This document shows positions 18,575-26,021 of a DNA stretch of 64,000 nucleotides, in pieces. How positions within the stretch are numbered: position 1 is the stretch's first letter; each line of letters opens with the position of its first letter. Where the stretch lies: contig SLLL01000038.1 in assembly GCA_007134085.1 (NCBI GenBank), positions 21,555 through 85,554 on the forward strand, written 5' to 3'. The translations under genes and the position numbers were made by a program. The notes under the pieces are model-generated. The model was not told the origin of the DNA, ran no database searches, and saw only the letters and a program-made list of their open reading frames with translations. This stretch comes from Balneolaceae bacterium (GTDB taxonomy: Bacteria > Bacteroidota > Rhodothermia > Balneolales > Balneolaceae).

Positions 18575-19708
18575 CTACAGATTCTTGCTGTACATTCGGT
18601 AACGCTTATCGATAGTGCCGCCAATTTTCTCAGCAACCCTTAACATTTGGATATTATTTTCGAGAATCCAGCCAACTTCTGAGGAATAAAAATTCTTTTT
18701 AAGGCCGTTTTCTATTGCCTCTCTGTGCAGAAGAACATCAATACCCCTACCCTGATACTCAGGTATAACGCCCATGAGCGCAGTTCTGATTTTGTTGATT
18801 TTTCTCTTATTCCACAAAATTTTAAAGATCCCAAATGGCAGCAACCTCCCATTCATCTTTCTGAAAATCTGGTTGAAATCGGGCAGGGCTACCGAAAAAC
18901 CAACCGGTTTACCATCTATCTCCGCAATGTGAGCAAAATCATCATCTACAATAGTTTTTAGGTCTGCGGCAAGTGCATCGAACTCTTCAGTACTTAGCGG
19001 AATAAAACCCCAGTTATTTTTCCAGGCGCTGTTAAAAATCTCACGGATTATGGTTACTTCTTCCCTGATTTTCTTCAGTTTAATCTTGCGAATAGTAATA
19101 CCGGGCAGCCTTTTCTTTACAATCTCCATTGCGCGGTTAGCACGGCCTCTGTCAACAGAGTCCTGAGTAACAAGATACGTGAGAAGATCCATCTCTTTTT
19201 TATACCCGGCTTCGATCACCAGCTTATCGTAGTATGGCTTATTATAGGGCATTAGTATAGATGGATACTTATCGAAGCCCTCAACCAAAATCCCGATTTC
19301 ATCCATCATACCGGGGTTTGCCGGGCCAAGTACCTGTTCCATGCCTTTTTCGCGCAGCCAACCTTCTGCTACTTTAAAAAGCAGGTTTGATGTTTCGGGT
19401 TTATCAATCGATTCAAAAAAACCAAAAAAGCCGGTTTTAGTATTGTGAAACCGATTGTAGCGGTGATCAATAATTGCAGCAATTCTGCCGGCCGGTTTGT
19501 TATTCAGAGTGGCATAAAAAAATGCGATATCTGCATTATTGAAGAAGGGATTCTTTTCTGTACTCTGGAGCTTTTTTTGCTCAATCAAAAGAGGGGCTAC
19601 CCAAAACTCATCATCTTTATAATGATTGTAGGGAAAATGCAGAAAATTCTTTTTTTCCTCTTTTGTGGTAACAAATGTTACCTGATGAGTGTCAGGCCTC
19701 TTCTTCAC
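18575..19708 (-). CDS. GNAT-fold YghO-like protein; probable bacterial ceramide synthase (bCerS)
   Basis: F...P...Y.DD..WV.PL, GRIAAIID, GFFGFFES, GP.NP, G.LVEGF....MPYN..YY and E.GWILENN pattern. Starts 2 bp after the spt stop codon. Confidence 0.75.
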   Translation of the reverse strand: MKKRPDTHQVTFVTTKEEKKNFLHFPYNHYKDDEFWVAPLLIEQKKLQSTEKNPFFNNADIAFFYATLNNKPAGRIAAIIDHRYNRFHNTKTGFFGFFESIDKPETSNLLFKVAEGWLREKGMEQVLGPANPGMMDEIGILVEGFDKYPSILMPYNKPYYDKLVIEAGYKKEMDLLTYLVTQDSVDRGRANRAMEIVKKRLPGITIRKIKLKKIREEVTIIREIFNSAWKNNWGFIPLSTEEFDALAADLKTIVDDDFAHIAEIDGKPVGFSVALPDFNQIFRKMNGRLLPFGIFKILWNKRKINKIRTALMGVIPEYQGRGIDVLLHREAIENGLKKNFYSSEVGWILENNIQMLRVAEKIGGTIDKRYRMYSKNL

Positions 19709-19710
19709 GG

Positions 19711-20955
19711 TTAATCCGCTTCAATAAGTGACTGGCCATTCTCGTCTATAATGCCGTGCTTAATGCCAACCTTCCTAAAGGCATCAAGAATCTTGTTGAG
19801 ATGTTCATCAGTATGGGTGGCCATATAACTTGTTCTAACCAGTGCCTGGCCCTGTGGTACAGCAGGAGGAACAACAGCATTCACGTAAACACCCTCTTCA
19901 AACAGGTCTTTCCAGAATTGAAAACATCTCATCATATCCCCTACAACCACGGGAATAATCGGGGTTTGGCTGGACCATACATTAAATCCAAGATTACGCA
20001 GCTCAGTGCGCATATAGTTAGAAATTTCTTCGAGCCTCTCAAGCCTCCAGGGCTCTTCCTGTAGTATTTCGAGTGATTTCAAAACAGTGGCAACATTTGC
20101 GGGTGGCATACTCGCACTAAAAATGTGTGCGGGTGACTGATGCCTAATGAAATCAATAACCGTTTTATCACCTACTAAAAAACCACCAAGTGATGCGAAA
20201 GATTTTGAAAAGGTACCACTGATAAGGTCAACTTCGTCCATAAGGCCAAAAACGGATGCAGATCCACGGCCGCCATCGCCAACTACGCCAATTGCATGTG
20301 CATCATCAAGATAGAGGCCCGCATCAAACTCTTTTGCTAGCTTTACAAGTTCGGGCACTTTAGCAAGTGTACCGGACATTGAGAACACGCCATCTGTAAC
20401 TATAATTTTACCTGCATCGGGATCAGCCTTTTCAAGGTATGATCTCAGCTGCTCCATATCGTTATGGCGGTAACGAATTGTTTTTGCATTCGATACCTGT
20501 GTACCTACCACAATACATGCATGGTTGTCTCTGTCAGAAAAAATAAGATCGTTTCTGCCGGCTATTACCTGTATTGAACCTTCATTGGTTTGGTAACCGG
20601 TACTAAAAAGAACACACGCTTCTTTGCGCATGAAAGTGGCTAATTTTTCCTCAAGTTCAAGATGAAGATCTAACGTGCCGTTTAAATATCGTGAGCCGGT
20701 ACAGCCTGTGCCGTAAACATCAATTACACTTTTTGCGGCTTCAATGGTTCTTGGATCATTTGTAAGCCCGAGGTAATTATTCGAGCCGGCCATGATTACA
20801 TCTCTTCCTTCAATGTTTACACTTGTGCCGTCTGTAGCCTGCAGAGGTTTAAAATAGGGGTATAATCCAAGCTTTTTTATCTCCTCTGCGATGGTAAAGT
20901 CGTAAGCCTTTTTAAATACTTTACTGTAAGAGGGATCGGCTTTAGTTTCGGCCAT
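19711..20955 (-). CDS. spt: Serine palmitoyltransferase (alpha-oxoamine synthase family)
   Basis: GLYPYF, GSNNYLGLT, GTGCTGSRYLNGT, DNHACI, DDAH, GTFSKSF (PLP lysine) and IFSAS. This pattern fits SPT better than BioF or Kbl, and the neighbouring gene is bCerS-like. Confidence 0.85.
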   Translation of the reverse strand: MAETKADPSYSKVFKKAYDFTIAEEIKKLGLYPYFKPLQATDGTSVNIEGRDVIMAGSNNYLGLTNDPRTIEAAKSVIDVYGTGCTGSRYLNGTLDLHLELEEKLATFMRKEACVLFSTGYQTNEGSIQVIAGRNDLIFSDRDNHACIVVGTQVSNAKTIRYRHNDMEQLRSYLEKADPDAGKIIVTDGVFSMSGTLAKVPELVKLAKEFDAGLYLDDAHAIGVVGDGGRGSASVFGLMDEVDLISGTFSKSFASLGGFLVGDKTVIDFIRHQSPAHIFSASMPPANVATVLKSLEILQEEPWRLERLEEISNYMRTELRNLGFNVWSSQTPIIPVVVGDMMRCFQFWKDLFEEGVYVNAVVPPAVPQGQALVRTSYMATHTDEHLNKILDAFRKVGIKHGIIDENGQSLIEAD

Positions 20956-21038
20956 TATTAAAGGTAGTTGTATTCACATTAAACAGGTAAATATACCGAG
21001 ATATCTAATTCAATCAAATTCAGAACGTAACAAACCGC

Positions 21039-22151
21039 CTATTCATTCACAGATTTGAGGAATGAAATATAGTTTTCAACTACGGCATCCCAGGTAAATG
21101 TACCCATTACGTACTCCCTGCTTGTTTTTGAAAGGCTCTCAAGTTCATTGGCAAGAATAGCATCAATTTTCCCGGCAAATGCTTCGGCATCTCCATGCGG
21201 CAACCGGTAACCATTTACTCCCTGTTTAATCACATCTTTTATCCCTTCAAGGTCTGATGCTACGGCCGGCACCCCGGCTCTGTTTGCTTCAAGCAGAACT
21301 ATTCCAAACCCTTCCATATCTCCTTCTACCGGTATGTTGGGCATAATGAAAATGTCAGCTGCGGCATAACAAACGTGCAGCATTTCAATCGGTAATCTGC
21401 CTGTTAGAACAATTTTCTCCCCTTTACCGCACTGCTCTTTAGCTAAGATAATATTATCCAGTTCCGGCCCATCCCCAACAATCATATAAACCACATCCGA
21501 TTGTATCTTCCCGAAAGCATCTCTGATAAACCACTCATGACCTTTTCTTTTTACTTGCCTGCCAACCGTTAACAGAATCTTTGATTCCCCAAGATCAATC
21601 CCAAACTCTTTTTCCAGCATTTTACGGGCTGCCGGTTTTTCGGGTTGATTTCTTTCTGATGTGGCATCAAAACCGTTAAATAGTGCCCTCCCTTTTTCCG
21701 GGTCCATGCCCCTGTCGATAGATGCCTGCCGCGTAGCTGATGATACCGAAATTACACCACTAAGGTTTTTAAATATTTTCGGCACATACCATTGATAGAT
21801 AGGATTGGGAAGTGTTACGTCCTGCCCGTGATTTATAGTTACGCAAGGTACCTTAGGTTTACGAATCATTGCCGGCAACACACCCGATGTTACCATGGAA
21901 GAGAAAAGAATTACATCCGGCTCAAACCGTTTCACGGCTGCGGGAATTCTCCACAAAAGCCTTACCAGAAAAAAGAACGTCTTAATACCAATAAACCGCC
22001 AGGATGAGTGAAGTATAATGGCCTCAATTTCAAGATCATCCCTGCGCTTCATAGCTTTAATCATCTGCAAGCTAACGTTCTGCATACCGCCGATACTCTT
22101 TAACGGCTTGTTTTTAGGCGGATGAAGATGTGAGATATATAGAATGCGCAA
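21039..22151 (-). CDS. GT4 glycosyltransferase
   Basis: GT-B fold with VGRQVKRKG and EGFGIVLLEA. Confidence 0.9.
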   Translation of the reverse strand: MRILYISHLHPPKNKPLKSIGGMQNVSLQMIKAMKRRDDLEIEAIILHSSWRFIGIKTFFFLVRLLWRIPAAVKRFEPDVILFSSMVTSGVLPAMIRKPKVPCVTINHGQDVTLPNPIYQWYVPKIFKNLSGVISVSSATRQASIDRGMDPEKGRALFNGFDATSERNQPEKPAARKMLEKEFGIDLGESKILLTVGRQVKRKGHEWFIRDAFGKIQSDVVYMIVGDGPELDNIILAKEQCGKGEKIVLTGRLPIEMLHVCYAAADIFIMPNIPVEGDMEGFGIVLLEANRAGVPAVASDLEGIKDVIKQGVNGYRLPHGDAEAFAGKIDAILANELESLSKTSREYVMGTFTWDAVVENYISFLKSVNE

Positions 22152-22155
22152 TATT

Positions 22156-23295
22156 TTAGCCCTTTTCTTTTAATACTTCCCGGTAGTACCCCACCAAATT
22201 GTTATTAATAGAATCCCAGCTGTAGCTTTTTGATTTTTCCAGGCCATCCTGCCCCATACCTTTCCGTAGTTCTGAATCAGTCACCAGTTTATCAATGAAA
22301 GTATAGAATTTATCGGTGCTTTCAACAGGTATTACAAATCCGTTCTCACCATCTTTCACGAGAGACTTGCTTCCGGTGGCATCCGCAACAACTGCCGGCA
22401 ATCCACTCGCCATTGCTTCAAGAGTTACATTGCCGAAAGTTTCCGTATCTGACGGAAAGAAGAAAATATCACTGCTTGCGTAAGCTGTTGCTAAATCAGC
22501 ACCACCAAGAAATCCTGTAAATACGGCATCCGGCATTAGCTCTTTCATTTCGCCCATTGCCGGGCCGTCACCAACTATCATCGCTTTCGCATGTTCTCTT
22601 TTTTTTGTGATTTTATTCACCACATCAGCAAAGAGTTTCAGGTTCTTCTCCCATACCAGCCGCGAAATAAACGTGATCACAATATCTTCAGGCTCAAAAC
22701 CATGCTTTTTCCGCCATTCATCACTCCTTCTGCCAGGGTTGAATATCTCGCTTTCAATGCCACGGGCCCAAATTCTGAAATCTGTTTCTATCTTTTTCTC
22801 TTCAAGAATTTCCTGCATAGAGGGTGATGGCACAAAAACCAGTTCACACTTCCTGTAAAACCAGGAAAGATATTTCCACATTGCCGGTTCAAGCAGCGAA
22901 ACTTTATAATATTTGAGATAGCTGGAAAAGTGCGTATGATAAGAAGAAACAACAGGTTTATCATATTTCACAGCCCACTTTAAAGCCTTGTAGCCCAGCA
23001 GATCGGGCGTAGCGATGTGGATAATATCCGGATCAAAATCACGGAGTTTTTGCCGCTGTTCGCCCGGAAACGCCCTAGAAAAACGATATTCCGGCCTGCC
23101 AGGGAGTTTCATTGATGGAACTGAAATCAACGTACCGCTGTGATCAAGAGCGGGTTCATCAATCGTTGGGCCGAAAACCAAAACATCAATATCATTCTTT
23201 ATCAAATAGGCCACCAACCGATTCAGGGTGAGAGAAACCCCGTCGCGAATGTGGTTATAGTTACCGGTAAACAGAGCTACTTTAAACCGGCTCAT
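22156..23295 (-). CDS. GT4 glycosyltransferase of the lipid-glycosylating MgtA/Agt-like type
   Basis: DGVSLTL, IHIATPDLLG, SSYHTHF..Y, SRLVWEKN and ETFGNVTLEAMASG. Confidence 0.9.
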   Translation of the reverse strand: MSRFKVALFTGNYNHIRDGVSLTLNRLVAYLIKNDIDVLVFGPTIDEPALDHSGTLISVPSMKLPGRPEYRFSRAFPGEQRQKLRDFDPDIIHIATPDLLGYKALKWAVKYDKPVVSSYHTHFSSYLKYYKVSLLEPAMWKYLSWFYRKCELVFVPSPSMQEILEEKKIETDFRIWARGIESEIFNPGRRSDEWRKKHGFEPEDIVITFISRLVWEKNLKLFADVVNKITKKREHAKAMIVGDGPAMGEMKELMPDAVFTGFLGGADLATAYASSDIFFFPSDTETFGNVTLEAMASGLPAVVADATGSKSLVKDGENGFVIPVESTDKFYTFIDKLVTDSELRKGMGQDGLEKSKSYSWDSINNNLVGYYREVLKEKG

Positions 23296-23507
23296 TTCCC
23301 CTGTAGCATTTCATTTATCAACATGTACATCCGGTAGATATCTGTTTTGTTACGCTAATGCTGATCACTTTTTAGCAGGTTCGGTTTTTATCTTTTTATT
23401 GATGAACACAGTATCTTAAAGCGTTGGTTCAAAAAATAACAGTTATGGTATCAGCAGACATTTTTGAGCGCACTATTTAATATTAGGCCAATGAATATAC
23501 AAAGATA

Positions 23508-24482
23508 ATGAATGTATTTGTTACCGGCGGAACCGGTTTTATAGGCAGCCATCTTGCAGACAGTTTAATAGAAAGCAGCAGTGTTGGCGAGGTTAAATGC
23601 CTTGTTCGCAGTAACGAAAAGTGGCTTGAGGGAAAGCAGTTCACGAAAGTAAACGGAGATCTTCACTCTATAAGAACCATAGAAGAGGCTCTTGATGGCA
23701 TAGATACCATTTTTCACCTGGCAGCCATCGTTAAGGCACCATCAAAAAAAGAGTTTACCCACGCCAACGTAGATGCCCCCGAAAACCTGATGCGTCTCGC
23801 AAAAAAAGCAGGTGTAAAAAAAATGGTGATTCTCTCATCTCTCGCTGCAGCCGGCCCCAGCAACGGCACGCCATTAACCGAGCAGGATGAAATGAAACCC
23901 ATCAGCATGTATGGCCGCTCAAAAAAAGAGATGGAAGTGATGATTCATGAGCTTGCCGATCCCGATATGTCCATCACCATTTTGAGGCCGCCGGCTGTTT
24001 ATGGCCCTCGGGAAGATCAGATTTTTACCCTCTTCAAAATGATGAGTAAAGGAATTGCACCCATTGTTGGTGATGGCGAACACCCCCGTTTGTCGATAGT
24101 GTATGTGGCTGATTTGATTCAGGGTATTTTGAAGGCTGCAGAACAGATAGAAAAAGGCGTGCATACCTACTTTATAAGCGGAGAGGATGTTGCAAACTGG
24201 AACCAGATACGAGATATTGTTACAACCGTTCTGAACCGGAATGTCACATCCATAAAAATACCCCCAAACTGGGTTAAAAAAATTGCCGGAGTGATCGAAA
24301 CATCAGCGTCATTTTTTGGTTCATATCCCGTTATTAACCGGGAAAAAGCAAACGAAATGGTACTCGAGTGGACCTGCTCCCATCAAAAAGCGGCAAACGA
24401 ACTCGGTTATCAGCCGGAATATTCTCTCGAAGAAGGTATTTCCAGAACTCTGAGATGGTACAAAAAACATAATTGGTTATAA
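23508..24482 (+). CDS. Extended SDR (NAD-dependent epimerase/dehydratase family); candidate ceramide reductase
   Basis: TGGTGFIG, SSLAA, YGRSK (YxxxK), RPPAVYGP. The reductase role is inferred from context only. Confidence 0.85.
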   Translation: MNVFVTGGTGFIGSHLADSLIESSSVGEVKCLVRSNEKWLEGKQFTKVNGDLHSIRTIEEALDGIDTIFHLAAIVKAPSKKEFTHANVDAPENLMRLAKKAGVKKMVILSSLAAAGPSNGTPLTEQDEMKPISMYGRSKKEMEVMIHELADPDMSITILRPPAVYGPREDQIFTLFKMMSKGIAPIVGDGEHPRLSIVYVADLIQGILKAAEQIEKGVHTYFISGEDVANWNQIRDIVTTVLNRNVTSIKIPPNWVKKIAGVIETSASFFGSYPVINREKANEMVLEWTCSHQKAANELGYQPEYSLEEGISRTLRWYKKHNWL

Positions 24483-24488
24483 ACGTTT

Positions 24489-26021
24489 ATGCGATTACTA
24501 CAGACAAAGCTACTACTCATCTTTTCTCTGATTTTTCTTGGCCTCAGCAGTGTGGCAACTGCACAATTGCAGAAAGATCTTAGCCGGCAAATTCAAATCC
24601 CCGACATCAACAACCTCAACAGTTCGGTTACGCATCTTTATATTCTTTCTGAAAGTGAGGGATTGGTTGTTTTTCGTGCGCATGCCGATTCACTGCAGTG
24701 GCTTTATTCTTCAACAGGCATGCAACAGCGCGGCAACATTCTGGAAAGTGATATCCGTTTTGCATACCTCTACGGAACCGGAAGAAGGCTTACCGTAATT
24801 GAACCAACCTCTGTTCTTGGTGTTTATTCATCAACCATGCTCCCGGCGCGCCCGCTATCGGTAAAACGAATCGGTCAGCAGCTTTTTGTTGCGATGGGTT
24901 CAAACGGGCTTGGCACTATTAACCTGGAAACACCGGAGAGTGTTGATACCGATCTTAATATGATTGAGAGCAGTGAGAACATCCGTGATCTTGAATCGGA
25001 TGGGCGCAGAACTCTATATGCGCTTAACAACGACAACGAAATTTTGATCTACGAAATATCCGAAGAAGAAGTAGCCAACCGGCAGAGAGTGCAGGTAAAC
25101 CGAACCACATCGAAACTTTGGCTGCTTGATGATGAACTTTACGGCAGTGATAGTTCAGGCAGAATTTTCCTCATCAATTCCGATGGAAACACACGTACCA
25201 TTGCCCAACTTTCAGGTGAAATTGAACGATTTGATAAGTGGAACGGGCTGATGATTGCCCGAACCGAAAGTGGCGAAGTATGGAGAGGCCCGGTTGGTGG
25301 TGATATGGATATCTGGCGATCGAACAGACAGGCCGGTAACTTCTTCACGGTTTCCGAAGATAACCTGTGGCTCACCGAATTCGACGGACTCGCTCCAGTT
25401 TTAAGCAGGGAACAATCAGACAGCAGGCCGCAGGCTTCTGCATCCCTGCGATTAAAGCCGATCAACAATGTGGTGTTGCCATTCCCTCGCCCGCTGCTTC
25501 TGCCTATTGAGTTCGAATCACAAACCGATCCCTCTCAGGTTTCCATCAGCTATACTGCATCATTTAATAATGCGCGTATTCGGGGTAAATCGTTCTACTG
25601 GCAGCCTGCAACAGGGCAAACCGGCCGGCACAATGTTACCATTATAGCTACATCAGCCGGTGGCGAGACAGACAGCACATCATTCACCATTGACCTCCGC
25701 CCATTCAACTCTCCACCCAGGTTTACAGCTGCAAGGCCTATTACCATTGCTGTTGATGAAGCTTTCGATTTACAAATCAATGCCATTGACCCGGACGGTA
25801 TGGATCAAAATCTTATCCGATATCTTGGTGTTGATATGCCGGATGGTGCATCCATCAACGAGCGCACGGGAGTTTTCAGCTGGACCCCAAACGTTCGGCA
25901 GGTAGGCGGCCACGAATTTCAGGTGATTGCCACCGATCAATTCGGTGCTGCTGCTTCTCAGAATTTTACCATCAACGTGATAGAAATTGTAGAAGAGCCG
26001 CTTGATGATGAGCTCTACTGA
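24489..26021 (+). CDS. Exported protein with a beta-propeller-like N-terminal region and two C-terminal putative-Ig/cadherin-like domains
   Basis: Signal peptide; NSPPRFT, AIDPDG, PDGASINERTGVFSWTP and FYWQP repeats. Confidence 0.75.
   Translation: MRLLQTKLLLIFSLIFLGLSSVATAQLQKDLSRQIQIPDINNLNSSVTHLYILSESEGLVVFRAHADSLQWLYSSTGMQQRGNILESDIRFAYLYGTGRRLTVIEPTSVLGVYSSTMLPARPLSVKRIGQQLFVAMGSNGLGTINLETPESVDTDLNMIESSENIRDLESDGRRTLYALNNDNEILIYEISEEEVANRQRVQVNRTTSKLWLLDDELYGSDSSGRIFLINSDGNTRTIAQLSGEIERFDKWNGLMIARTESGEVWRGPVGGDMDIWRSNRQAGNFFTVSEDNLWLTEFDGLAPVLSREQSDSRPQASASLRLKPINNVVLPFPRPLLLPIEFESQTDPSQVSISYTASFNNARIRGKSFYWQPATGQTGRHNVTIIATSAGGETDSTSFTIDLRPFNSPPRFTAARPITIAVDEAFDLQINAIDPDGMDQNLIRYLGVDMPDGASINERTGVFSWTPNVRQVGGHEFQVIATDQFGAAASQNFTINVIEIVEEPLDDELY

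What the first reader, a model, noticed from the sequence alone, without database searches (positions are those of the whole stretch)
18575..24482. Compact putative glycosphingolipid biosynthesis cluster (GT4-GT4-spt-bCerS plus divergent SDR)
Seen: four co-oriented genes (gaps 4, 83 and 2 bp) encoding two GT4 enzymes, an SPT-type alpha-oxoamine synthase and a YghO-like GNAT protein, with an extended SDR transcribed divergently. Established: the Caulobacter ceramide pathway uses Spt, a GNAT-like bCerS and a reductase CerR, and GT4 enzymes glycosylate ceramide in Caulobacter and sphingomonads. Inference: this organism makes ceramides and glycosylates them from one locus. I am not aware of such a self-contained spt-bCerS-GT-GT operon being characterised in Balneolaceae/Rhodothermota, but could not check the literature.
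Basis: partly seen in the sequence, partly recalled or inferred. Interest (0 to 1): 0.75.

Follow-up and report, generated by a model that had tools for sequence, protein, structure and literature searches.

The report
Glycosphingolipid operon in LPS-less Balneolaceae
This Balneolaceae bacterium carries a compact, order-wide conserved gene cluster that most likely makes ceramide and attaches sugars to it. Its whole bacterial class shows no lipid A (LPS) synthesis genes, so these lipids may stand in for LPS in the outer membrane, as they do in Sphingomonas.

Summary

- **Spt:** the AOS is 50% identical, without gaps, to the crystallised Sphingobacterium multivorum SPT and groups with it in a tree. 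The genome's own Kbl and its cysteate-acyltransferase paralog group elsewhere.
- **bCerS:** the GNAT is a tandem-GNAT, YghO-family protein. It is 35% identical end to end to the cerS-position gene of a Caulobacter-type sphingolipid cluster in Sphingomonas. In 50 of 73 loci from many phyla it lies directly downstream of an Spt-like gene.
- **CerR:** the SDR is the genome's best match to the cerR-position reductases.
- **Glycosyltransferases:** that the two GT4 enzymes act on ceramide is inferred only.

New context found here:
- The full cluster is conserved across the order.
- The spt-bCerS pair and GT4-A are present in 121/121 and 120/121 genomes of the class.
- LpxC, LpxB and the Kdo transferase were found in 0/121 genomes of the class. 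LpxC was found in 76/76 genomes of the rest of the phylum.
- BamA is present.

Verdict: a new member of the known bacterial ceramide and glycosphingolipid pathway, in a lineage that appears to lack LPS. Lipid chemistry is untested.

The parts
23508..24482 (+). Extended SDR, candidate ceramide / 3-ketosphinganine reductase (CerR-like). It has the motifs GGTGFIG and YGRSK and no signal peptide.
   Evidence: Pfam Epimerase/3Beta_HSD. The best NCBIfam families are lipid-type reductases, below cut-off: HpnA 140 bits, OleD 100 bits. It is the best hit in the own genome for the cerR-position genes of Sphingomonas (102 bits against 53) and E. coli (117 against 66). Pairwise alignments are end to end at 24-26% identity. 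A homolog lies next to Spt-GNAT in 33 of 50 cross-phylum loci.
23296..23507 (.). 212-bp AT-rich divergent intergenic region, the presumed promoter region for both transcription units.
   Evidence: Sequence read. The sigma-70 consensus scan is no better than shuffles, so promoters are not located.
22156..23295 (-). GT4-A, a retaining GT-B glycosyltransferase with the E-x7-E motif ETFGNVTLE. It is the candidate first, lipid-acceptor sugar transferase.
   Evidence: Pfam Glyco_transf_4 plus Glycos_transf_1. The top NCBIfam matches are all membrane-lipid glycosyltransferases and all far below cut-off: GlcNAc-PG synthase 147 bits, IagA/BgsA 97, Mgs 94. It is a single-copy ortholog in 120/121 genomes of the class.
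21039..22151 (-). GT4-B, a second GT4 glycosyltransferase with the E-x7-E motif EGFGIVLLE and a TTG start 4 bp after the GT4-A stop. It is the candidate second sugar transferase.
   Evidence: Pfam. NCBIfam matches are unspecific: BshA 91 bits, glycogen synthase 74 bits. It is 31% identical to GT4-A over 184 residues only. It is variable across the family: present in 33 of 40 Balneolaceae regions, absent in 3, and replaced by another GT4 in 2.
20956..21038 (-). 83-bp spacer between GT4-B and spt. An internal promoter is possible.
   Evidence: Sequence read. No terminator-like site was called in the spacer.
19711..20955 (-). Serine palmitoyltransferase (Spt), a PLP-dependent alpha-oxoamine synthase. 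Conserved motifs are H145 (NHA), D217-D-A-H220, K251 in TFSKS, and R374.
   Evidence: It scores 430 bits and is 49.9% identical, without gaps, over 385-386 residues to S. multivorum SPT 8guh/3a2b. For comparison: BioF/Kbl 297 bits, Kbl about 265, Cfat 223. NCBIfam SerpalmtaseCFB scores 504 bits, below the cut-off of 640. Tree. The genome has separate Kbl and Cfat paralogs.
18575..19708 (-). bCerS-type N-acyltransferase, a YghO-family tandem-GNAT protein. Its GTG start lies 2 bp after the spt stop.
   Evidence: It is 35% identical end to end (E 3e-78) to the GNAT at the cerS position of the Sphingomonas parapaucimobilis sphingolipid cluster, and 37.8% identical to E. coli YghO. An Spt-like gene lies directly upstream in 50 of 73 loci from many phyla. 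The AF2 model has pLDDT 94.4 and matches tandem-GNAT folds.

Best explanation
The locus encodes a complete route to a glycosylated ceramide.

1. Spt condenses L-serine with a long-chain acyl thioester to give 3-ketosphinganine. The thioester is probably acyl-CoA, as in Bacteroidota, because no dedicated ACP or acyl-ACP synthetase is linked.
2. The YghO-type tandem-GNAT protein (bCerS) N-acylates the amine.
3. The divergently transcribed extended SDR (CerR-like) reduces the 3-keto group to give dihydroceramide. The order of acylation and reduction is not resolved. The SDR has no signal peptide, so it is probably cytoplasmic.
4. GT4-A then transfers a first sugar to the 1-OH of ceramide with retention, giving an alpha linkage. 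GT4-B adds a second sugar. This would parallel Sgt1 and Sgt2 of Caulobacter.

Shown here: gene content, family membership by sequence, structure prediction and phylogeny, and conservation. Inferred: all substrates and products, co-transcription, and the ceramide specificity of the GT4 enzymes.

The lineage has no detectable lipid A pathway, so the product is likely a major and perhaps indispensable envelope lipid.
For: **Spt**
- 50% identical, without gaps, to crystallised S. multivorum SPT. The PLP lysine and the His/Asp/Arg motifs are conserved.
- in the tree it lies with S. multivorum SPT and all GNAT-linked AOS genes. Kbl (SH-aLRT 99), BioF and Cfat lie outside (branch support 86).
- the genome has its own Kbl (698 bits, above cut-off) and a Cfat/SulA-like paralog (455 bits to 28eh). 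This copy is therefore a third, distinct AOS.

**bCerS**
- full-length homology to the GNAT that sits at the cerS position of Caulobacter-type clusters in Sphingomonas (CerR-ACP-Spt...LptF-LptG...GNAT) and in E. coli (AasR-CerR-ACP-Spt next to yghO). The layout of the Caulobacter cluster is described in PMC11324152.
- reciprocal best hits.
- spt-GNAT adjacency in 50 of 73 loci from Ignavibacteria, Zixibacteria, Gemmatimonadota, Acidobacteriota, Planctomycetota, Binatia and others.
- tandem-GNAT fold.

**CerR**
-.

**GT4 enzymes**
- GT4 domains, E-x7-E motifs, and best matches to lipid glycosyltransferases for GT4-A.
- same-strand tight linkage conserved across the whole order.
- outside the class, unfused GT4-A homologs were found only in Spt-positive genomes (28 genomes in 5 families, and 0 of the Spt-negative genomes apart from a fused 800-aa form in one family).
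- Precedents: Caulobacter Sgt1 and Sgt2 are adjacent GT-4 enzymes that glycosylate ceramide sequentially (PMC6445935). B. fragilis AgcT is a GT4 alpha-galactosylceramide synthase (bioRxiv 10.1101/2023.05.23.541633).

**Importance to the lineage**
- Spt is in 121/121 and GT4-A in 120/121 genomes of the class.
- LpxC, LpxB and WaaA are in 0/121, while LpxC is in 76/76 genomes of the rest of the phylum.
Against: - No lipid has been analysed, and no paper on Balneolaceae sphingolipids was found.
- Spt scores below the NCBIfam equivalog cut-off (504 against 640 bits).
- No direct comparison was possible with the experimentally characterised bCerS and CerR proteins (CCNA_01212, CCNA_01222, BF9343_4218, BF9343_4240) or with Sgt1, Sgt2 and AgcT. 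The bCerS link runs through synteny-defined orthologs.
- SDR similarity to CerR is only 24-26%, which is typical of any pair of extended SDRs.
- The flanking housekeeping genes (fumC, mutY) are equally syntenic in the family. Conservation of the GT4-spt adjacency within the order is therefore weak evidence of function on its own.
- In the rest of the class, GT4-A and the SDR are not linked to spt.
- GT4-A homologs of 35-44% identity occur in LPS-positive Bacteroidota, where their acceptor is unknown and could be diacylglycerol.
Confidence: 0.66

Rival explanations
1. Spt, bCerS and CerR make ceramide, but the two GT4 enzymes act on another acceptor, such as diacylglycerol (glycoglycerolipids) or a polysaccharide or small molecule. 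Ceramide would then carry a different head group, or none. The GT4 genes would be only historical neighbours of spt.
For: - The GT4-A orthologs of the other order(s) of the class lie far from spt.
- The whole neighbourhood, including fumC and mutY, is syntenic in the family.
- GT4-A's best curated matches (GlcNAc-PG synthase, BgsA/IagA, Mgs, Dgs) all act on glycerolipids.
- GT4-B's matches are unspecific.
- GT4-A homologs occur in LPS-positive Bacteroidota.
Against: - The genes are on the same strand, with a 4-bp and an 83-bp spacing and no terminator-like site in between.
- The linkage is kept in four families of the order.
- Unfused GT4-A homologs outside the class were seen only in Spt-positive genomes.
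- The known ceramide glycosyltransferase AgcT belongs to the same GT4 lipid-glycosyltransferase neighbourhood as BgsB (bioRxiv 10.1101/2023.05.23.541633).
Confidence: 0.22
2. The AOS-GNAT-SDR trio makes a sphingolipid-like but non-serine lipid. Examples are a 1-deoxy (alanine-derived) or glycine-derived base, or a capnine or halocapnine-type sulfonolipid as known from Salinibacter.
For: - Spt is below the curated equivalog cut-off.
- Salinibacter, of the same class by taxonomy, is known for a sulfonolipid (PMC10626005, citing Corcelli 2004).
- 1-deoxyceramides are made by Bacteroidota (PMC11334938).
Against: - The genome has a separate, much better Cfat/SulA homolog (455 bits against 223 for the window's AOS).
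- The window's enzyme is 50% identical to a serine-specific, crystallised SPT and keeps its motifs.
- The tree separates it from Cfat.
Confidence: 0.08
3. The genes are unrelated neighbours, and the GNAT is an ordinary acetyltransferase of other function.
For: - Only a weak Pfam GNAT hit and no NCBIfam or PDB sequence hit.
- 15 of 73 GNAT loci have no Spt within 10 kb.
Against: Adjacency to Spt across phyla, and homology to the cerS-position gene of proteobacterial sphingolipid clusters.
Confidence: 0.03

Closest known systems
Caulobacter crescentus ceramide and glycosphingolipid pathway: Spt CCNA_01220, bCerS CCNA_01212, CerR CCNA_01222, and the GT-4 pair Sgt1/Sgt2 CCNA_00793/00792 (PMC6445935, PMC11087976, PMC11324152)
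   Same: - The same three enzyme families build the backbone.
- Two adjacent GT4 enzymes are proposed to add two sugars in sequence.
- The GNAT and the SDR are homologous to the cerS- and cerR-position genes of Caulobacter-type clusters.
   Different: - There is no dedicated ACP or acyl-ACP synthetase, and no LptF2/G2, in the cluster.
- The cerS homolog is in the same putative operon as spt, 2 bp downstream. For Rhodobacteria, cerS is said always to lie in a different operon (PMC11324152).
- The GT4 genes are inside the cluster. In Caulobacter they lie elsewhere.
- The SDR has no signal peptide, whereas Caulobacter CerR is reported to be periplasmic.
- Spt is only 36% identical to an alphaproteobacterial Spt.
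Bacteroides fragilis Spt, CerS BF9343_4218, CerR BF9343_4240 and the GT4 alpha-galactosylceramide synthase AgcT BF9343_3149 (bioRxiv 10.1101/2023.05.23.541633; PMC9692976)
   Same: - The same phylum in GTDB terms.
- An acyl-CoA-type Spt of the Bacteroidota clade.
- A GT4 lipid glycosyltransferase makes an alpha-glycosylceramide.
   Different: - In Bacteroidota the genes are reported as dispersed (PMC11334938). Here they form one cluster.
- Bacteroides has LPS.
Sphingomonadaceae, LPS-free diderms with glycosphingolipids in the outer membrane
   Same: A ceramide pathway together with absence of the lipid A pathway, with an outer membrane retained. BamA is present and LptF/G are present.
   Different: - An independent lineage, in Bacteroidota rather than Alphaproteobacteria.
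- Here the loss of lipid A genes spans a whole class.
- The role of the sphingolipid in the outer leaflet is untested.
Sphingobacterium multivorum serine palmitoyltransferase (PDB 3A2B, 8GUH)
   Same: 49.9% identity, without gaps, over 385 residues, with the same catalytic motifs.
   Different: It belongs to a different clade within the Spt group: the Sphingobacteriia/Saprospiria clade, against the Rhodothermia clade that is sister to Ignavibacteria.
Cysteate-C-fatty acyltransferase (Cfat/SulA/CapB) of sulfonolipid synthesis (PDB 28eh, 7u7h; PMC9304779)
   Same: The same AOS superfamily and an analogous first step.
   Different: The window's AOS scores 219-223 bits to these enzymes. A separate paralog on another contig scores 444-455 bits. 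The window gene is therefore not the sulfonolipid enzyme.

Membership tests
Bacterial serine palmitoyltransferase (AOS family, Spt clade) | PLP-binding lysine and the His/Asp/His/Arg active-site residues of SPT | tested here: met
   K251 in GTFSKS, H145, D217..H220 and R374 align without gaps with S. multivorum SPT.
Bacterial serine palmitoyltransferase (AOS family, Spt clade) | Groups with characterised Spt rather than Kbl, BioF or Cfat | tested here: met
   In the IQ-TREE quick tree of 65 AOS sequences, Kbl, BioF and Cfat lie on the other side of a branch with SH-aLRT 86. The window's protein lies in a 57-row group with S. multivorum SPT. Support is moderate.
Bacterial serine palmitoyltransferase (AOS family, Spt clade) | Reaches the curated NCBIfam equivalog cut-off | tested here: not met
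   NF047600 SerpalmtaseCFB scores 504 bits against a cut-off of 640. It is still the top family by more than 110 bits. That model appears to be built on Bacteroidia-type sequences.
Bacterial serine palmitoyltransferase (AOS family, Spt clade) | Condenses L-serine with long-chain acyl-CoA or acyl-ACP | not testable with these tools
   This needs an enzyme assay.
bCerS (bacterial ceramide synthase, YghO-type GNAT) | Full-length homology to the cerS gene of experimentally defined clusters | tested here: inconclusive
   Met for synteny-defined orthologs: the Sphingomonas GNAT after LptF/LptG (35% identity, E 3e-78) and E. coli YghO next to AasR-CerR-ACP-Spt (37.8% identity). The characterised proteins CCNA_01212 and BF9343_4218 themselves could not be fetched.
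bCerS (bacterial ceramide synthase, YghO-type GNAT) | Genomic association with spt | tested here: met
   An Spt-like gene lies directly upstream in 50 of 73 loci from many phyla. The pair is adjacent in 16 of 17 sampled loci of the other families of the class.
bCerS (bacterial ceramide synthase, YghO-type GNAT) | GNAT-fold acyltransferase | tested here: met
   The AF2 model has pLDDT 94.4. The top Foldseek hits are tandem-repeat GNATs (7q3a, 2wpw, MshD), with TM about 0.6.
bCerS (bacterial ceramide synthase, YghO-type GNAT) | N-acylates 3-ketosphinganine or sphinganine | not testable with these tools
   This needs an assay or genetics.
CerR (bacterial ceramide reductase, extended SDR) | Extended SDR with a TGxxGxxG NAD(P) motif and a catalytic YxxxK | tested here: met
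   The motifs GGTGFIG at residues 7-13 and YGRSK at 135-139 are present, together with the Pfam Epimerase domain.
CerR (bacterial ceramide reductase, extended SDR) | Orthology to the cerR of known clusters | tested here: inconclusive
   It is the best hit in the own genome for the Sphingomonas and E. coli cerR-position genes, by about twofold in score, and is adjacent to spt-GNAT across phyla. Identity is only 24-26%, and the characterised CCNA_01222 and BF9343_4240 were not compared.
CerR (bacterial ceramide reductase, extended SDR) | Periplasmic location (reported for Caulobacter CerR, PMC11087976) | tested here: not met
   The protein starts MNVFVTGGTGFIG and has no signal peptide. This is a property of one characterised member and may not define the family.
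Ceramide glycosyltransferases (Sgt1/Sgt2, AgcT, Cer-GlcAT; CAZy GT4) | GT4 retaining GT-B fold with an E-x7-E motif | tested here: met
   Pfam Glyco_transf_4 plus Glycos_transf_1 in both proteins. The motifs are ETFGNVTLE and EGFGIVLLE.
Ceramide glycosyltransferases (Sgt1/Sgt2, AgcT, Cer-GlcAT; CAZy GT4) | Sequence relationship to a characterised ceramide glycosyltransferase | not tested
   The reference sequences (ACL94258.1, ACL94257.2, CAH08930.1, ATI80198.1, AAV90581.1, as named in PMC13318209) were not obtainable with the tools.
Ceramide glycosyltransferases (Sgt1/Sgt2, AgcT, Cer-GlcAT; CAZy GT4) | Ceramide as acceptor | not testable with these tools
   This needs an assay or lipidomics.
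LPS-free, sphingolipid-containing diderm envelope (Sphingomonas type) | No lipid A (Raetz) pathway | tested here: met
   LpxC, LpxB and WaaA were each found in 0/121 genomes of the class at 90% completeness or more. LpxK was found in 0/5. LpxA was above cut-off in 1/5. The controls and 76/76 genomes of the rest of the phylum are positive for LpxC.
LPS-free, sphingolipid-containing diderm envelope (Sphingomonas type) | Outer membrane present | tested here: met
BamA is above cut-off in 5/5 genomes.
LPS-free, sphingolipid-containing diderm envelope (Sphingomonas type) | [quoted passage not shown] | not testable with these tools
   This needs membrane fractionation and lipidomics.

The most novel reading that the evidence does not exclude
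The whole class that contains this organism is a lineage of diderm bacteria that lost lipid A. By the names on related records, the class is GTDB Rhodothermia, that is Balneolales plus Rhodothermales, including Rhodothermus- and Salinibacter-like genomes. [quoted passage not shown] That would make them a second, independent and much deeper 'Sphingomonas solution'. In Balneolales the pathway has been condensed into a single locus.
Probability: 0.45. Interest if true: 0.85.

Novelty: new member of a known kind. Interest (0 to 1): 0.66.

Why it matters
Bacterial ceramide synthesis was defined genetically only recently, and very few bacterial ceramide glycosyltransferases are known. This locus offers a compact five-gene set that could be moved as a unit to test the pathway. 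It could settle the debated order of acylation and reduction, because here the reductase has no signal peptide. It could also reveal the sugar specificity of two new GT4 enzymes.

The class-wide absence of LpxC, LpxB and the Kdo transferase, next to universal and highly conserved Spt, bCerS and GT4-A, gives a concrete hypothesis for what replaces LPS in an abundant group of marine, saline and thermophilic Bacteroidota. Cultured strains are available to test it. If confirmed, it would bear on three things: outer-membrane biogenesis without LPS, including what LptF/G transport in these cells; the interpretation of environmental sphingolipid biomarkers; and the immunological inertness of these bacteria.

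Tried and rejected
- **Reference paper not held.** Stankeviciute et al. 2022 (PMC8891067) is not in the library, and the supplement of PMC11334938 holds no sequences. Characterised bCerS and CerR sequences could therefore not be compared directly. I used synteny-defined orthologs from annotated Sphingomonas and E. coli records instead.
- **First alignment too diverse.** A 34-sequence GNAT alignment was too diverse for the search for related loci. A 10-sequence one worked.
- **Control genomes without handles.** A family search on the own genome was tried as a way to reach named control genomes. The controls are reported without handles, so they could not be used.
- **PDB sequence search with the GNAT.** Only noise, E above 0.5.
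- **Promoter and terminator scan.** The counts are no better than shuffles: 15 against 13.8 expected for promoters, and 10 against 6.3 for terminators. It gives no information on the operon.
- **LptD Pfam search.** 0/5, but the Bacteroides control is silent too, so it is uninformative. LptF/G are present, but they are also present in LPS-less controls such as Thermus and Thermotoga, so they do not discriminate.
- **The look-up of sequencing runs was closed.** Co-transcription and expression could not be examined.
- **BioF/Kbl identity considered and rejected.** The genome has its own Kbl above cut-off, and the tree separates the window's enzyme from Kbl and BioF.
- **Sulfonolipid Cfat identity considered and rejected.** A separate and much better Cfat paralog exists on another contig.
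- **Literature searches.** Searches for Balneolaceae plus sphingolipid, Balneol* plus LPS/lpxC, Rhodotherm* plus lpx, and Rhodotherm* plus diderm plus LPS returned nothing relevant. This covers only the held library.

Full report
**1. Observation**

- On the minus strand lie four genes: 22156-23295 (379 aa), 21039-22151 (370 aa, TTG start), 19711-20955 (414 aa) and 18575-19708 (377 aa, GTG start).
- The gaps between them are 4, 83 and 2 bp.
- On the plus strand, 212 bp away and divergent, lies 23508-24482 (324 aa).
- Pfam and NCBIfam give two GT4 glycosyltransferases, an alpha-oxoamine synthase (AOS), a protein with only a weak C-terminal GNAT hit, and an extended SDR.
- The flanks are housekeeping genes (fumC and a 2-oxoacid dehydrogenase E1 on one side; mutY and DUF2400 on the other), plus a secreted He_PIG/Ig-domain protein.
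- The closest homologs carry Balneolaceae and Rhodohalobacter names.

**2. The AOS is an Spt**

- *Sequence.* Against PDB sequences it scores 430 bits to Sphingobacterium multivorum SPT (3a2b, 8guh). The other scores are 297 for Thermus BioF/Kbl, about 265 for Kbl, about 260-275 for alphaproteobacterial SPT and 219-223 for the cysteate acyltransferases.
- *Alignment.* The alignment to 8guh has no gaps over 386 residues and is 49.9% identical. It keeps the PLP lysine (TFSKS), the NHA histidine, DDAH, and the arginine near the C-terminus.
- *Curated family.* NCBIfam puts SerpalmtaseCFB first at 504 bits, but below its cut-off of 640.
- *Paralogs.* The assembly is 3.1 Mb and 91% complete. It has two further AOS paralogs: a true Kbl (698 bits, above cut-off, followed by an SDR) and a Cfat/SulA-like enzyme (455 bits to 28eh). 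The window's gene is therefore a third, distinct AOS.
- *Tree.* A maximum-likelihood tree of 65 AOS sequences places it in a clade of its own class (SH-aLRT 99) that is sister to an Ignavibacteria clade. Both lie inside a group that holds S. multivorum SPT and every GNAT-linked AOS. Kbl, BioF and Cfat lie across a branch with support 86.

**3. The GNAT is of the bCerS family**

It has no NCBIfam or PDB sequence match. It nevertheless belongs to a very large family, with 1,499 representative clusters at E of 1e-30 or better.
- *Named homologs.* tblastn against annotated plasmid records found E. coli YghO (37.8% identity, 97% coverage) and a Sphingomonas parapaucimobilis N-acetyltransferase.
- *Sphingomonas context.* The Sphingomonas gene lies in a cluster of NAD(P)H-binding protein, ACP, AOS..., LptF, LptG, desaturase, GNAT. 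This is the layout described for Caulobacter CC_1165-CC_1152, where cerS (CC_1154) follows LptF2/LptG2 (PMC11324152).
- *E. coli context.* yghO lies beside a fatty acyl-AMP ligase, an SDR, an ACP and an AOS, next to LptG and LptF.
- *Pairwise and reciprocal.* The window's GNAT aligns end to end with the Sphingomonas protein (35% identity, E 3e-78). In the reverse direction, the Sphingomonas and E. coli Spt, CerR-position and CerS-position proteins all find the window's genes as their best hits in the own genome.
- *Synteny across phyla.* Of 80 loci recovered from named genomes of many phyla, 73 have enough upstream sequence. In 50 of these an Spt-like gene lies directly upstream on the same strand, and 33 of those 50 also have a homolog of the SDR within 3.5 kb. 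This matches the published statement that Spt, bCerS and CerR are often clustered (PMC11334938).
- *Fold.* An AlphaFold model (pLDDT 94.4) is a tandem-repeat GNAT.
- *Limit.* I could not obtain the characterised CCNA_01212 or BF9343_4218 sequences, so the link to bCerS is through synteny-defined orthologs.

**4. The SDR**

- It has the motifs GGTGFIG and YGRSK and no signal peptide.
- Its best curated matches are HpnA and the lipid keto-reductase OleD, both below cut-off.
- Identity to the cerR-position proteins is only 24-26%. It is still their best match in the genome by about twofold in score, and its homologs accompany spt-GNAT in other phyla.
- A CerR or 3-ketosphinganine reductase role is therefore likely.
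- The order of the reduction and acylation steps cannot be read from sequence.

**5. The GT4 pair**

- Both proteins have the GT4 E-x7-E motif.
- GT4-A's best curated families are all membrane-lipid glycosyltransferases: GlcNAc-PG synthase, IagA/BgsA, Mgs and Dgs. All are far below cut-off. GT4-B's matches are unspecific.
- Precedent exists. Sgt1 and Sgt2 of Caulobacter are adjacent GT-4 enzymes that act sequentially on ceramide (PMC6445935). AgcT of B. fragilis is a GT4 enzyme related to BgsB-type glucosyl-DAG synthases (bioRxiv 10.1101/2023.05.23.541633).
- Ceramide as the acceptor remains an inference.

**6. Conservation**

- *bCerS in the family.* The ortholog was found in 81/81 Balneolaceae genomes from 43 genera.
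- *Cluster in the family.* In 40 regions fetched from about 39 genera, the order SDR | GT4A-(GT4B)-Spt-GNAT is invariant. Thirty-three regions have both GT4 genes, 3 have only GT4-A, 2 have a different second GT4, 1 has three, and 1 is truncated.
- *Cluster in the order.* Three other families of the order have the full cluster.
- *Rest of the class.* In the other 15 families sampled, only spt-GNAT are adjacent (16 of 17 loci), with no SDR or GT4 within 8 kb.
- *Caveat.* fumC, mutY and the He_PIG gene are equally syntenic in the family, so adjacency inside the order is weak functional evidence.
- *Independent hints.* GT4-A is a single-copy gene in 120/121 genomes of the class at 46-68% identity. 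In a phylum sample, unfused GT4-A homologs occur outside the class only in Spt-positive genomes, namely 28 genomes in 5 families. A fused form of about 800 aa occurs in one Spt-negative family. These genomes are related to each other, so this is only suggestive.

**7. Unexpected context: no lipid A pathway**

- *Own genome.* LpxC, LpxB and the Kdo transferase domain are not found.
- *Family.* LpxC is not found in 81 Balneolaceae genomes. LpxB is not found in 41 high-quality ones.
- *Class.* LpxC, LpxB and WaaA are each found in 0/121 genomes at 90% completeness or more, from 19 families.
- *Rest of the phylum.* In the same phylum sample, LpxC is found in 76/76 genomes outside the class and in 0/25 inside it.
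- *Controls.* The named controls behave as expected.
- *Other markers.* LpxK is 0/5. LpxA is above cut-off in 1/5. BamA is above cut-off in 5/5. LptF/G are present in 5/5.
- *Spt.* It is present in 121/121 genomes of the class at 62% identity or more.
- *Naming of the class.* By the names on related records (Balneolaceae, Rhodothermales) the class corresponds to Rhodothermia in the GTDB sense.
- *Literature.* I found no paper in the held library that reports either Balneolaceae sphingolipids or loss of LPS in this group. The library is incomplete, so prior description cannot be excluded.

**8. Mechanism proposed**

1. Spt makes 3-ketosphinganine from serine and an acyl thioester. Acyl-CoA is likely, because no linked ACP or acyl-ACP synthetase was found, as in other Bacteroidota.
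2. bCerS N-acylates it.
3. The probably cytoplasmic SDR reduces C3.
4. GT4-A and then GT4-B add sugars with retention of configuration.

Steps 1-3 are well supported by homology and context. Step 4 is plausible but untested. In a lineage without lipid A, the product is a candidate major outer-membrane lipid.

**9. Verdict**

- As a gene set it is a new member of a known pathway. It has an unusual, self-contained organisation: the cerS homolog and both glycosyltransferases share a locus with spt.
- Its interest is raised by the class-wide absence of lipid A genes.
My results agree with that note but do not prove it.

Noticed in passing
whole genome G000 and its class (outside the window): LpxC, LpxB and the Kdo transferase (PF04413) were each found in 0/121 genomes of the class at 90% completeness or more. 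LpxC was found in 76/76 genomes of the rest of the phylum. LpxK was 0/5. BamA and LptF/G are present. The lineage looks like an LPS-less diderm lineage.
   Followed up: yes
G000 contig C257:1411-2640 (locus L003), outside the window: A third AOS paralog is strongly similar to the cysteate-C-fatty acyltransferases (455 bits to PDB 28eh, 444 to SulA 7u7h). The organism probably also makes capnine-type sulfonolipids.
   Followed up: partly
G000 contig C143:1028-2170, outside the window: A second YghO-like tandem-GNAT paralog, about 28% identical to the window's protein, is present in most Balneolaceae and lies among housekeeping genes. It might N-acylate another amino lipid such as capnine, but its function is unknown. 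A stand-alone FabZ lies at C143:5611-6075; the LpxC matches elsewhere in the phylum lie in roughly 470-500-aa open frames, longer than LpxC alone.
   Followed up: partly
window 24489-26021 (+): A 510-aa protein with a signal peptide and a C-terminal He_PIG/Ig domain starts 6 bp after the SDR stop. It is syntenic in 38 of 40 Balneolaceae regions and may be co-transcribed with the reductase. Its function is unknown.
   Followed up: partly
L088 (E. coli record NZ_MG591698, 846-19949): In this E. coli record, yghO lies next to a fatty acyl-AMP ligase, an SDR, an ACP, an AOS, LptG and LptF. That is a full Caulobacter-type sphingolipid gene set beside the glc operon. The record is labelled a plasmid but carries chromosomal genes.
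   Followed up: no
G050:C1:3702845-3703609 (a Balneolaceae genome): One of five genomes tested has an LpxA-family gene above the curated cut-off (274 bits), although LpxC, LpxB and LpxK are missing there. It may be a recruited or transferred acyltransferase.
   Followed up: no
L066 (Longimicrobiaceae MAG) 39-2961: Outside the class, a bCerS homolog is followed by a GT4-A-like gene (239 bits). This may be an independent case of linkage between a ceramide-pathway gene and a GT4 gene.
   Followed up: no
L091, L092, L098, L103, L113, L122 (Balneolaceae regions): The second glycosyltransferase slot varies. It is missing in three genera, replaced by a different GT4 in two, and one genome has three GT4 genes. 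This suggests variation of the head group within the family.
   Followed up: partly
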